The notes below the pieces were generated by a model. That model had not been told where the DNA came from, searched no databases, and worked only from the letters and a program-made list of their open reading frames with translations. DNA of 64,000 nt, from positions 178,436,001-178,500,000 of the forward strand of contig NC_042998.1 of NCBI RefSeq assembly GCF_006345805.1, written 5' to 3'. The position numbers were made by a program, and so were the translations under genes. This DNA comes from Octopus sinensis. Taxonomy: Eukaryota. Shown piece after piece: positions 1,663-61,099 of this stretch (positions within the stretch are counted from its first letter, which is position 1; each line of letters starts with the position of its first letter).

Positions 1663-2100
1663 GTCATTATTTACATTATTTACATTTGACGGATATTTGT
1701 CCTCATCTTGTTTGTTGTTAACACATTTTGGCTGATATACCCTCCAGTCTTCATCAGGTGTCATGGGGAAATTTCGAACCTGGGCTCTCATACCTAAGGT
1801 ATTATCGATGTTATTATTATTATTATTATCATTATTCAGGTCACTGCCTGGAATTGAACTCGGAATCTTGGGTTAGTAGCCCGCACTCTTAACTACTATG
1901 CCATATAGTAATAATAATAATAACAACATCGAAAAATGCCTTAGGAATGAGAACCCAGGTTCGAAATTTCACCAAGATACCTGATGAAGGCTGGAGGGTA
2001 TATCAGCCAAAACATTGTGTTAACAACAAACAAGATGAGGACAAATATCCGTCAAAGGTAAATAATGTACATAATTCCTCATCTCTTAAATATAGAACTG
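1663..2100. mobile_element. Palindromic non-autonomous retroelement: tRNA head + (AAT)n + hammerhead-like motif, Penelope-style inverted ends
   Basis: Arms ~1666-1830 and ~1908-2075 are inverted copies. A tRNA-like head lies on the minus strand at 1838-1903. CTGATGA-stem-(G>A)AAAC occurs at 1981-2013. TAGGTTATGG is duplicated at 1653-1662 and 2101-2110. Confidence 0.85.
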
Positions 2101-34919: not shown

Positions 34920-34951
<32 letters not shown>

Positions 34952-35835
34952 CAGGGTCAGGCAAAATGATCTGACACATTTGTAGGTTAAATAAAAGGCA
35001 AATGAAGTAAAGAAACAAAAAAGTGTTTTTATTTTTGTAAAGTACATATAATGCCATTTTGTTTCATTATGTTTTAAAAATTAAATCAGTCAAATGGGAT
35101 CCATTATTGTCCACACACTGTCAAAGGCGTGTGTGGCACAGTGAATAAGCAAAACTTCAGATACTGGGCCAAGAACAACCCTCGTGAGTTGCATGAACGC
35201 CCTTTGCATTGTCCTCGGGTGACTGTATGGTGTGCTGTGGCAGAATTTGGTATGTGGGGTCTGTACTTATTCGAAGAAGACAACGTTACAGTGACTGTGA
35301 ACTCTGATCGATATTGTGAGATGCTAGAGACTTTTCTCAGACCAAAATTGAATATGCTCCACGATATGGACAATGTTTGGTTTCAACAGGATGGAGTAAC
35401 AGCCCACACTTCTTGACGTGCGATGGGGATTTTGAGGAGTGTTCCCTGGTCATTTGATCTCATTGCGTGGTGACATCGGTTGGCCCGCCCGTTTACTTGA
35501 TTTAAATCCGTGCGATTTTTTTCTCTGGGGATACCTCAAGTCAAAGGTATACATGAATCGCCCTCAATCTATTGAACAACTTAAAGATGCAATTCGTCAA
35601 GAAATTACTGCCATTCCACATGAAATGACCCGCCGAGTTATTGACAACTTTCGTGAACGCCTTCGACAGTGTGTGGACAATAATGGATCCCATTTGACTG
35701 ATTTAATTTTTAAAACATAATGAAACAAAATGGCATTATATGTACTTTTCAAAAATAAAAACACTTTTTTGTTTCTTTACTCCATTTGCCTTTTATTTAA
35801 CCTACAAATGTGTCAGATCATTTTGCCTGACCCTG
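34952..35835 (+). mobile_element. Non-autonomous Tc1/mariner element, DD41D (rosa-type) transposase remnant with 179-bp inverted ends
   Basis: Arms 34952-35130 and 35657-35835, flanked by TA. It encodes NKQNFRYW...WCAV...FQQDG...WPARLLDLNPCDFFLWGYLK with a stop and a frameshift; spacing is about 41 aa after correction. Confidence 0.9.
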
Positions 35836-35848
35836 TATATATATATAT

Positions 35849-37561
35849 AGGGAGAGAATTTGTTTAGATGAAATGCAGTTCGGTTTTGTACCAGGTAGAA
35901 GCACCACTGATGCTATATTCCTGGTCCGACAACTGCAGGAGAAGTACCTAGCTAAAGATAAACCCCTCTACATAGCTTTTGTAGACTTGGAGAAAGCCTT
36001 TGACAGGGTTCCCCGTTCCCTTATCTGGTGGTCGATGCGGAAACTGGAGATTGAAGAATGGCTAATAAGGGCTGTACAGGCTCTATACAGAGAGGCTGTC
36101 AGCAAGGTTAGGATTGGCAACGAATATAGTGAAGAATTCCGGGTAGAAGTAGGTGTGCACCAGGGCTCAGCCCTCAGTCCCCTTTTATTCATCATAGTCC
36201 TTCAGGCAATAACAGAGGAATTCAAAACGGGATGCCCCTGGGAGCTCCTCTATGCCGATGACCTAGCTCTCATAGCAGAATCACTACCGGAACTAGAAGA
36301 GAAATTTCGGGTGTGGAAGCAAGGATTGGAATCAAAGGGCCTTAGAATAAATGTAGCAAAGACCAAAGTATTAGTAAGCAGCAAGAGGTACTCAGCACAC
36401 ATCCCCTCGGGTAGGTGGCCTGCTCAACCTGTAGGAAAGGTACAGGTAGAAACTCCATAAGATGCACCCAATGTAAGTTATGGACACATAAGAGGTGCAG
36501 CAACATTAAAGGGAAATTAACAGATAAGATAGCTTTCATGTGCGGCAGATGCACAGGGACAATAGACACAACAGACACTCAGAAAACAGATTCCATCACA
36601 CTCCAGGGAGAGAAACTAGAAGTAGTTGATAGTTTCCGCTACCTGGGTGACCAAGTTAGTAGCGGAGGTGGATGCACAGAGAGTATCACCACTAGAATAC
36701 GAATAGTCTGGGCAAAGTTCAGAAGCTCCTACCCCTACTGGCAACAAAAGGTCTCTCCCTCAGAGCAAAAGGTAGATTGTATGATGCATGTGTGCGAACT
36801 GCCATGCTTCACGGTAATGAAACATGGGCTGTGACTGCAGAAGACATGCGTAGACTTGAAAGAAATGAAGCTAGCATGATCCGCTGGATGTGTAGTGTCA
36901 GTGTGCACGCAAAACAGAGTGTAAGTATCCTGAGAGAAATGCTGGATATAAGAAGCATCAGATGTGGTGTGCAAGAGCGACGCTTGCGATGGTATGGTCA
37001 TGTGCTGCGGATGGATGAAGAGAGATGTGTGAAGAAGTGCCACTCCCAAACAGTTGAAGGTATCAGGGGGAGAGGTAGACCCAGGAAGACATGGGATGAG
37101 GTGGTCAAGCATGACCTCAGAGCATTGGCCTCACTGAGGCAATGGCAAAGGACCGAGATCTCTGGAGATATGCTGTGACTACAAAGACCCGGCTGCTTTC
37201 TGCAGCAATTCCACATACCCCCTACCCATTCTAAGTACCCCGGATCCCCAAAGTATCCTGGATCCCCAAAGTACCCCGATCCCCAAAGTACCCCGGACCT
37301 CGTTGCCCCCGTGCCGCTGACACGTTAAAATGCTCGAACCGATCGTGATGATGCCGGACCCTCCGGCCCCTGTGCAGGTGGCACGTAAAAGGCACCCAAT
37401 CCACTCACGGAGTGGTTGGCGTTAGGAAGGGCATCCAGCCGTAGAAACTCTGCCAGATTCAGACTGGAGCCTGGAGCGGCCCCTGGCTTCCCAGACCCGG
37501 TCGAACCGTCCAACCCGTGCTAGCGCGGAAAGCGGACGTTAAACGATGATGATGATGATGA

Positions 37562-42216: not shown

Positions 42217-42575
42217 ATATGCCCCAACCAATTTTTTGACTGAAATGATTCTTGATTCTCTACCAACAACTGCTCCATCATCATCATCATCATCGTTTAA
42301 CGCTTGCTTTTCATGCTAGCATGGATTGGACGGTTCGACTGGAGTCTGGGAAGCCAGGAGGCTGCACCAGGCCCAGTCTGATCTGGCAATGTTTCTACAG
42401 CTGGATGCCCAGAAACACTGCCAGATCAGACTGGGCCTGATGCAGCCTCCTGGCTTCCCAGACCCCAGTCGAACCGTCCAATCCATGCTAGCATGGAACG
42501 CGGACGTTAAACGATGATGATGATGATGGAAGAGAATCAAGAATCACTTCAGTCAAAAAATTGGTTGGGGCATAT
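42217..42575. repeat. Fold-back inverted duplication of an RTE 3' tail plus its flank
   Basis: Arms ~42217-42396 and ~42411-42575 are reverse complements, including ~48 bp of non-RTE flank (atatgccccaaccaattttttgactgaa...). Confidence 0.92.
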
Positions 42576-58464: not shown

Positions 58465-59764
58465 ATATATATATATATATAATATATATATATATATATA
58501 CATACACACACACACACACAAGGAAAGAGAGAGAGGAGACAGTATTTTCTAACTGAAGGCATATCAGATTCATGTTTTTTGTCTAAATAAAATAGCAATC
58601 CCCTATTTTAAAACTGTGTTAAAATTCTTCTAAGGCAAATACCTAAATGTTTTAAACATTTATACAAAACCAATACATATATTCTGAGTTCTTCTTTTTA
58701 GTCTGTTCTATCACCTGCAGAAAAATTTTATAATATATATATATTACGGAGATGTACTTGCATAGCAAGTGACTTGATCCGAGATCGTGTGCTGGAATGA
58801 AAACAATTGCAACATGGAAGGTGTTTATAAGCCATTTAAGAAACACACAAAACCGTTAGATTCACTTCAACATTTAAATTTAATTTGTCAAAATATTTTC
58901 ATCGCTTTGAGACCGTGACCTGTTCACTGATAAAACTTTGTGCTGCATCTGAGATGCAGCACTGACACCTTCCACGCTGCAATTGTTTTTGTTTCAGCAC
59001 ATGATCTCAGATTAGGTCACTTGCTATGCAAGTACATCTCCATAATATATATATATATATATATATATACAACAAGCTTCTTTCAGTTTCCATCTACCAA
59101 ATCCACTAACAAGTCTTTGGTCATTCTGAGGTCTTGAGGCTATAGTAGAAGACACCTGCCCAAGGTGCTACGCAGTGGGACTAAACCTGGAACAATACAG
59201 TTGGAAAGCAAGCTTCTTACCACACAGCCATGCCTGTGCCATAGTGAACTTCTTAACCACATAGCCATGACTGCAACTAGTTACTCATATACATACATCA
59301 TCACCATTTAACATCCATTTCTCCATGCTTGCATGGGTTGGAAGGAGGCAAATTTTCCATGGCAAGATGCCCTCATGTATTTCCAAGCAAAGTTATATTT
59401 CCTCAAGACCAGACATATTCCTACAGATTATTAGAAATGAATGACAATACTTGTATGAGAGTGACACTCACTTACAACAAGCATGCAGTGTCAAGACAAG
59501 AAGACAATCATACGTACACTCACACACATATGTACACACATATATAATTAACTTCTTTCAGTTTCGGTCTACTAAATCCACTCACAGGACTTTGGTCAAC
59601 CCAGAACTACATTAGAAGATACTCAAGGTGCCACGCTGTGGGATTGAACCTGGAACCATGTGGTTAGGAAGCAAACTTCTTACCACACATGCCTGCACCT
59701 ATAATACATACATATATACACCCACACCTGCATCAATCAATCATACATACATACATACATATAT

Positions 59765-59806
<42 letters not shown>

Positions 59807-61049
59807 CACACACACACACACAAGGAAGAGAGAGAGGAGACAGTATTTTCTAACTGAAGGCATATCAGATTCATGTTTTTTGTCTAAATAAAATAGCAAT
59901 CCCCTATTTTAAAACTGTGTTAAAATTCTTCTAAGGCAAATACCTAAATGTTTTAAACATTTATACAAAACCAATACATATATTCTGAGTTCTTCTTTTT
60001 AGTCTGTTCTATCACCTGCAGAAAAATTTTATAATATATATATATTACGGAGATGTACTTGCATAGCAAGTGACTTGATCCGAGATCGTGTGCTGGAATG
60101 AAAACAATTGCAACATGGAAGGTGTTTATAAGCCATTTAAGAAACACACAAAACCGTTAGATTCACTTCAACATTTAAATTTAATTTGTCAAAATATTTT
60201 CATCGCTTTGAGACCGTGACCTGTTCACTGATAAAACTTTGTGCTGCATCTGAGATGCAGCACTGACACCTTCCACGCTGCAATTGTTTTTGTTTCAGCA
60301 CATGATCTCAGATTAGGTCACTTGCTATGCAAGTACATCTCCATAATATATATATATATATATATATATATACAACAAGCTTCTTTCAGTTTCCATCTAC
60401 CAAATCCACTAACAAGTCTTTGGTCATTCTGAGGTCTTGAGGCTATAGTAGAAGACACCTGCCCAAGGTGCTACGCAGTGGGACTAAACCTGGAACAATA
60501 CAGTTGGAAAGCAAGCTTCTTACCACACAGCCATGCCTGTGCCATAGTGAACTTCTTAACCACATAGCCATGACTGCAACTAGTTACTCATATACATACA
60601 TCATCACCATTTAACATCCATTTCTCCATGCTTGCATGGGTTGGAAGGAGGCAAATTTTCCATGGCAAGATGCCCTCATGTATTTCCAAGCAAAGTTATA
60701 TTTCCTCAAGACCAGACATATTCCTACAGATTATTAGAAATGAATGACAATACTTGTATGAGAGTGACACTCACTTACAACAAGCATGCAGTGTCAAGAC
60801 AAGAAGACAATCATACGTACACTCACACACATATGTACACACATATATAATTAACTTCTTTCAGTTTCGGTCTACTAAATCCACTCACAGGACTTTGGTC
60901 AACCCAGAACTACATTAGAAGATACTCAAGGTGCCACGCTGTGGGATTGAACCTGGAACCATGTGGTTAGGAAGCAAACTTCTTACCACACATGCCTGCA
61001 CCTATAATACATACATATATACACCCACACCTGCATCAATCAATCATAC

Positions 61050-61080
<31 letters not shown>
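58465..61080. repeat. Near-identical ~1.3-kb tandem duplication bounded by (TA)n
   Basis: Identical ORFs recur at offsets of 1301-1303 bp (58652/59953, 58940/60241, 59329/60632). Confidence 0.95.
58742..59046 (-). mobile_element. Repeat with ~82-bp inverted ends and a variant hammerhead-like core (duplicated at ~60043-60347)
   Basis: Arms 58742-58824 and 58965-59046, flanked by (TA)n. Minus strand TTTATCA-GTGAACA-G-GTCAC..GCGAT-GAAA-ATATT-T-TGACAAA at 58934-58884. Confidence 0.75.

Positions 61081-61099
<19 letters not shown>

What the first reader, a model, noticed from the sequence alone, without database searches (positions are those of the whole stretch)
58884..58934. Hammerhead-like fold with a compensatory G3-C8 core swap (GUGAACA instead of CUGANGA)
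Seen (minus strand): stem I TTTATCA/TGACAAA, core GTGAACA, one extra G, stem II GTCAC/GCGAT, GAAA, palindromic stem III AATATT, U at the cleavage position. The topology matches the 1663 element, including the extra purine before stem II. It lies in a repeat whose last ~82 nt are copied inverted at the 5' end, within (TA)n. Known: C3 and G8 form a tertiary Watson-Crick pair in the active hammerhead, and compensatory swaps can restore activity in mutagenesis. Inference: a natural G3-C8 variant family that CUGANGA-based searches would miss. Stem mismatches here look like decay from GTCGC/GCGAC and TTTGTCA. A second copy lies at 60185-60235.
Basis: partly seen in the sequence, partly recalled or inferred. 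Interest (0 to 1): 0.85.

Follow-up and report, generated by a model that had tools for sequence, protein, structure and literature searches.

The report
Natural G3-C8 hammerhead in octopus retrotransposon
Thousands of copies of an octopus Penelope-like retrotransposon carry a small hammerhead-shaped RNA in which two paired core letters are swapped relative to its sister elements, so it is likely a natural, still self-cutting ribozyme variant that standard searches miss, although cutting is untested.

Summary
The window copy is a decayed member of a Penelope-like retrotransposon family (RT, zinc-finger linker, C-terminal GIY-YIG) whose pseudo-LTR holds a minimal type I hammerhead with G3 and C8. 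4,915 genome matches carry that core; the majority form has perfect stems and folds into them. Two related families in the same genome, and a more distant metagenome relative, keep C3-G8, so the swap is derived. It comes with three further compensatory pair changes while the other core letters stay fixed. G3-C8 also dominates in runs of four organism labels. Against: a minority of copies is G3-G8, more than decay explains; copy 5' ends do not pile up at the cut site; G3-U17 may mispair; no cleavage data exist. The 'inverted 82 nt' is the usual inverted 5'-truncated PLE copy, and the second window copy is a 1.3-kb tandem duplication. Natural U3-A8 swaps and engineered G3-C8 rescue are published; I found no natural G3-C8 in the papers I could search, but Lunse 2017 was unavailable. 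This scan noted G3-C8 candidates before in two protist genomes. Verdict: new variant of a known kind.

The parts
58884..58934 (-). Minimal type I hammerhead motif with G3-C8 core (decayed copy: three changes from the family majority)
58921..58927 (-). Core GUGAACA; G3 = 58927, C8 = 58922
58901..58919 (-). Helix II (5 bp in the majority form) with a 9-nt loop that varies between subfamilies; extra G at 58920 before it
58891..58900 (-). GAAA, palindromic helix III AATATT (predicted dimer interface) and U17 (predicted cut 3' of 58891)
58744..58954 (-). 5'-truncated pseudo-LTR plus tail of a Penelope-like element; two family-wide 3' ends, near 58803 and 58744
58965..59056 (+). Inverted 5'-truncated copy of the tail with (TA)n; 92 nt, 89% complementary to 58733-58824
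   Evidence: known PLE insertion layout (PMC8557442 passages)
58465..61097 (.). Tandem duplication of about 1.3 kb that contains both window copies
60185..60235 (-). Identical second copy of the motif inside the duplication

Best explanation
This is a decayed copy of the pseudo-LTR hammerhead motif of an octopus Penelope-like retrotransposon, in which the C3-G8 core pair of related families reads G3-C8, and the source elements' RNA likely still self-cleaved, slowly. Shown: the host element, the majority fold, the derived swap, three more compensatory pairs. Inferred mechanism: the pseudo-LTR is transcribed (probably spliced just upstream of helix I); two RNAs pair through the palindrome AAUAUU into a double hammerhead; G3-C8 forms the same Watson-Crick geometry as C3-G8 and so would keep the 2'-OH of nucleotide 8 in place; cleavage 3' of U17 would be weak and probably helped by the element's protein, as in the anole PLE. 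Selection acted on source elements; cleavage did not set the ends of most inserted copies, which were copied from uncut RNA.
For: Host: long copies run into an RT ORF with a CxxxCxxC linker and C-terminal GIY-YIG (PF01541 E 2.9e-4, just under the curated cut-off). 4,915 of 8,918 relaxed-pattern matches are G3-C8-A9, controls 0. In the first 100 of the 8,918: 67 G3-C8, 25 C3-G8 (all with the other helix II type), 3 G3-G8, 5 A3/T3-G8, no C3-C8 (hand tally). On 22 chosen rows of three families 96.3% of cells pair, 4 of 11 pairs change on both sides (3-8, helix I, II, III), slid controls at most 47%. Sister family groups with this one at 97/95; outgroup L231 has a canonical core with another palindromic helix III. 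No other letter reaches 4% at positions 3 or 8 in 4 of 4 runs from four organism labels. Majority form: helix I and II pair probabilities 0.94 and 0.99. C3G/G8C partly rescues a PLE hammerhead, and its cleavage needs the protein (PMC11167929).
Against: No cleavage data. G3-G8 copies exceed decay: 33 of 73 non-C8 copies even after dropping the 27 of one loop type, against 7 of 51 for the matching change at position 3, so RNAs with a broken pair were also copied. Only 1 of 30 copies picked by downstream sequence starts at the cut site; 112 of 195 segments start 16-30 nt upstream of the core. G3-U17 is predicted to extend helix I (p 0.67), a possible trap. The covariation reflects about three lineages, not 22 events; helix I of family B is imperfect (5 of 6 rows unpaired at the first pair). 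Within-family constraint is not significant (Fisher p 0.11). The youngest sister family carries A9C, hinting that constraint can lapse. No intact ORF was found in the 18 long stretches fetched for this family.
Confidence: 0.7

Rival explanations
1. The fold is kept as a non-cutting (or negligibly cutting) RNA module: a dimerisation or protein-binding signal of the PLE, with the 3-8 pair needed for shape only.
For: Copy ends ignore the cut site. Hammerhead mutants do not affect insertion in vitro and no RNA-seq ends were found at the site in the anole PLE (PMC11167929). Inverted arms of one insertion sometimes differ by subfamily (2 of 19 pairs with unlike loop types), which fits two RNAs travelling together.
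Against: The 3-8 pair is a feature of the active conformation (PMC3884650 passages), and G5, G12, A13, A14, the A15.1-U16.1 pair and H17 are all retained over a long branch.
Confidence: 0.2
2. The ribozyme had already lost function; C3G and G8C drifted in independently in a source element and were amplified by chance.
For: G3-G8 templates were retrotransposed; a sister family tolerates A9C; many PLE clades lack hammerheads (PMC8557442 passages).
Against: Two changes hitting exactly positions 3 and 8 of 13 core positions and restoring a Watson-Crick pair has a rough, post hoc chance of 1 in 234; three more pairs changed on both sides; several loop II types arose on an unchanged core.
Confidence: 0.08
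3. The element is a MITE with 90-base terminal inverted repeats and the motif is a chance match.
For: This copy has inverted ends inside (TA)n.
Against: Inversion points differ from copy to copy, many copies have none, long copies lead into an RT/GIY-YIG ORF, and reversed-pattern controls give 0.
Confidence: 0.02

Closest known systems
Minimal type I hammerheads of metazoan Penelope-like elements (Cervera and de la Pena 2014, PMC4209133; read parts 1-2 of 4 and supplement parts 1-2 of 3)
   Same: pLTR location, type I layout, extra nucleotide between 9 and 10.1, G10.1-C11.1, short palindromic helix III, dimer model, mostly solo truncated copies
   Different: Core pair is G3-C8; their alignment of 56 motifs shows only C3-G8 and U3-A8; helix I here is longer (7 bp)
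Natural U3-A8 hammerheads (Schistosoma Cercyon PLE, PMC4209133; Perreault 2011, PMC3088659, section 8 and passages read)
   Same: Natural compensatory change at the tertiary 3-8 pair
   Different: U3-A8 needs two transitions and keeps pyrimidine 3 / purine 8; G3-C8 needs two transversions and inverts the pair
Engineered C3G/G8C double mutants (PAc Poseidon PLE, PMC11167929, parts 1-2 of 4 read; review PMC8495972, one passage)
   Same: Same pair; partial rescue of cleavage
   Different: Laboratory mutants; here the pair is natural and was amplified to thousands of copies
Neptune/Nematis-group EN+ PLEs (PMC8557442, passages read)
   Same: RT, zinc-finger-like linker, C-terminal GIY-YIG, tail, inverted 5'-truncated copy, microsatellite targets
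   Different: Clade not fixed: no named reference sequences were in my tree

Membership tests
PLE minimal type I hammerhead | Lies in the pseudo-LTR of an RT + GIY-YIG element | tested here: met
PLE minimal type I hammerhead | Helices I and II in type I order | tested here: met
   majority form; not met by the window copy itself
PLE minimal type I hammerhead | Literal core CUGANGA | tested here: not met
   core is GUGANCA; hence filed as a variant, not a plain member
PLE minimal type I hammerhead | Watson-Crick complementarity of positions 3 and 8 | tested here: met
   22 of 22 chosen rows pair, 13 C-G and 9 G-C; a G3-G8 minority exists
PLE minimal type I hammerhead | U4 G5 A6 A9, G12 A13 A14, A15.1-U16.1, H17 | tested here: met
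PLE minimal type I hammerhead | Extra nucleotide before G10.1-C11.1 and palindromic helix III | tested here: met
PLE minimal type I hammerhead | Self-cleavage 3' of H17 as a dimer | not testable with these tools
   only contigs were available for the RNA-guess run; no molecule ends
Rfam hammerhead families | Covariance-model match | tested here: inconclusive
   no match in the window or in 7 loci, but the canonical C3-G8 relatives among them were missed too
Neptune/Nematis-group PLE | Zinc-finger-like linker between RT and C-terminal GIY-YIG | tested here: met
   CxxxCxxC, invariant C41 C45 C48 C56
Neptune/Nematis-group PLE | RT phylogeny with named clade members | not tested
   tree held only unnamed relatives
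PLE (general) | Optional 3' tail giving two 3' ends; inverted 5'-truncated copy | tested here: met
   68 and 101 of 195 segments end in two clusters about 55 nt apart
Non-LTR retrozyme | Head-to-tail tandem units each with a hammerhead | tested here: not met
   copies are dispersed or inverted pairs; the window tandem is a 1.3-kb duplication with flanks
MITE | Fixed terminal inverted repeats, no RT link | tested here: not met

The most novel reading that the evidence does not exclude
A catalytically active natural G3-C8 hammerhead whose route from C3-G8 is still recorded in the genome (G3-G8 copies as the surviving intermediate, carried through by pairing with a functional partner), and whose double-hammerhead dimer brings two element RNAs to one insertion site, so that the two arms of inverted PLE insertions are copied from different RNAs.
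Probability: 0.2. Interest if true: 0.75.

Novelty: new variant of a known kind. Interest (0 to 1): 0.5.

Why it matters
It would add the inverted pair to the natural states of the hammerhead's most conserved tertiary contact, backed by thousands of copies and a rooted comparison rather than one sequence, and shows that CUGANGA descriptors undercount PLE ribozymes. It also bears on an open question, what PLE hammerheads are for: the active-site geometry was kept by compensation, yet inserted copies come from uncut RNA. One genome supplies a ready natural series (C3-G8, G3-C8, G3-G8, A9C) for kinetic comparison. The surprise is moderate, since U3-A8 in nature and G3-C8 in mutagenesis are known.

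Tried and rejected
Rfam scans found no hammerhead for this motif or canonical relatives: uninformative. Pfam found nothing for the 251-aa RT piece. A search for an ancestral C3-G8 subfamily inside this family gave one diverged copy at an inversion junction with a scrambled helix I (L170/L225): not counted as support. Age comparison of G3-G8 and G3-C8 copies showed no difference (2.4% vs 2.8%, p 0.57), and G8 sits on many subfamily backgrounds, so intermediate versus reversion is unresolved. A-to-G excess from RNA editing: not seen. Intact ORF of this family: none in 13 plus 5 long stretches. Metagenome scan gave 2 loci, one with 3' flank. Read laying used contigs only, so no RNA ends, strand or level; the RNA label of X11 is a guess. 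Literature: 8 searches showed no natural G3-C8; Lunse 2017, Nelson and Uhlenbeck 2008 and Martick and Scott 2006 were not held, and Lunse's large alignments may already contain G3-C8 cases. The bioRxiv retrozyme preprint was read in part 1 of 5 only; its supplements were not seen. PMC6765202, PMC6155905 and PMC10085705 were seen as passages only.

Full report
Observation. The window copy does not fold as a hammerhead (z 0.17). It sits in a 324-base insertion with 92-nt inverted arms. The second copy belongs to a 1,335-base tandem duplication with no mismatches and adds no evidence. Rfam has no hammerhead match in the window.

The family. A DNA search of the own genome gave 3,704 candidates, 40 scored. 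Most aligned copies read G where the window copy has A in helix I and have GTCGC/GCGAC in helix II; that majority string occurs 388 times exactly, control 0. A relaxed pattern gives 8,918 matches and its G3-C8-A9 subset 4,915, controls 0; these are lower bounds and inverted pairs count twice. The majority form folds into helices I and II (pair probabilities 0.94 and 0.99). Copies differ from the majority at about 2-3% of non-CpG sites. Contigs of four runs under four organism labels show no alternative letter at 4% or more at positions 3 or 8; helix II varies only at CpG sites and helix I by a change that keeps a U-G pair.

The host element. [quoted passage not shown] The motif stands both before the ORF and about 1 kb behind it, as in pseudo-LTRs. 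A branch-point-like CTAAC, pyrimidine tract and AG end about 22 nt before the core (sequence); an intron there is inferred by analogy with Penelope. Family 3' ends fall in two clusters about 55 nt apart (68 and 101 of 195 segments), the PLE tail signature. Inversion points vary between copies, so the inverted arms are the known inverted truncated copy and not MITE ends. The best named protein relative (63% identical) is from Octopus vulgaris and matches a sister family in this genome at 99%.

The swap is derived and compensated. In the first 100 of the 8,918 matches (hand tally, start of one contig) 67 are G3-C8, 3 G3-G8, 1 A3-G8 with this family's loop, and 29 belong to sister types with helix II GTCAC/GTGAC (one with a mismatch), of which 25 are C3-G8 and 4 A3/T3-G8. 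Twelve sister-type loci resolve into two families, B and C. B aligns with this family at the motif and the tail; C has intact ORFs and groups with this family at 97/95 in a tree of the C-terminal 240 residues, with about 1.4 changes per site between them. A metagenome relative outside that group has a canonical core, an extra nucleotide and another palindromic helix III just behind its stop codon (L231). On an alignment of 22 rows that I chose (9 of this family, 7 C, 6 B) 96.3% of cells pair and four of 11 pairs change on both sides: 3-8, one pair each in helices I, II and III; slid controls reach at most 47%. I left out the outer helix I pairs, which are bulged in B and C, and 5 of 6 B rows fail the first helix I pair. 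These rows stand for about three lineages. A rough post hoc chance for two core changes hitting 3 and 8 and restoring a pair is 1 in 234.

Results against. Non-G3 copies follow decay (27 A, 17 T, 7 C of 51; none with G8), but non-C8 copies do not: 60 G, 29 T, 11 A among 100 listed of 105. Without the 27 that share one loop type (18 of them clustered on one contig), 33 of 73 are still G, against 7 of 51 expected (p 7e-11; patterns differ slightly and context effects are not excluded). G8 occurs on many subfamily backgrounds and is no older; 6 of 7 inverted pairs with a G8 arm have C8 in the other arm. So RNAs with a broken pair were copied too. Only one C3-G8 copy of this family was found. Of 30 copies chosen by the sequence downstream of the cut site, 1 starts there, while 112 of 195 segments start 16-30 nt upstream of the core: cleavage did not make the usual 5' end. 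G3-U17 is predicted to extend helix I (0.67); a G3-C8 variant is reported to work worse with C17 (PMC3884650, data not shown there), so U17 in place of the sisters' frequent C17 may be a partial escape, which is inference. Within-family constraint on the structured part is not significant (p 0.11).

Mechanism. Most likely (0.7) a weak, dimer-dependent and protein-assisted hammerhead: two RNAs pair through AAUAUU, G3-C8 replaces C3-G8, cleavage follows U17. Dimer need and low activity of PLE motifs come from PMC4209133; partial rescue by C3G/G8C, protein dependence and insertion from uncut RNA from PMC11167929. Rivals: non-cutting structural module (0.2), drift after loss (0.08), chance or MITE (0.02).

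Novelty. Natural U3-A8 is published; the 56-row alignment of PMC4209133 shows no G3-C8. Eight searches found no natural G3-C8, but Lunse 2017 with its large variant set could not be read. Two earlier notes of this scan report G3-C8 candidates with an added letter in protist elements; I did not check them. Verdict: real, a new variant of a known kind, interest 0.5.

Noticed in passing
L174-L203 (e.g. L174:4637-4688): The sister PLE family with intact ORFs carries A9C (core CUGAUGC) in nearly all of these copies, often with U17, while other copies keep A9 and C17: a second natural core variant, or a ribozyme lapsing in the youngest lineage.
   Followed up: partly
L014, L143, L227, L093: The two arms of one inverted insertion carry different loop II subfamily types (2 of 19 pairs clearly), suggesting two RNA templates per insertion or source elements with unlike pLTRs.
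   Followed up: partly
G000:C20, about 2.0-6.7 Mb and 17.4-17.7 Mb: Cluster of 18 G3-G8 copies sharing one loop type; local amplification or segmental duplication.
   Followed up: partly
window 1663-2075: Another inverted-pair element with a canonical CUGAUGA core on each strand; both copies have lost G12.
   Followed up: partly
L200:4264 and 4628: A U3-A8 hammerhead-like motif with palindromic helix III in two copies 364 bases apart.
   Followed up: no
L167, L169, L173: A further repeat with CUGAYGA core and GAAA-ATATT but no clear helix II in these copies.
   Followed up: no
window 58921-58930: Positions 2.3 to 6 form TCA-N-TGA, so a 7-base micro-inversion would convert C3 to G3 in one step; a point change does the same.
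   Followed up: no
window 42279-42528 and 34938-35849: Long inverted repeats (118 nt at 93%, 193 nt at 98%) of other repeat families.
   Followed up: no
L060:100-1130: A Tc1/mariner-like transposase remnant upstream of a long copy, judged by eye from the sequence.
   Followed up: no
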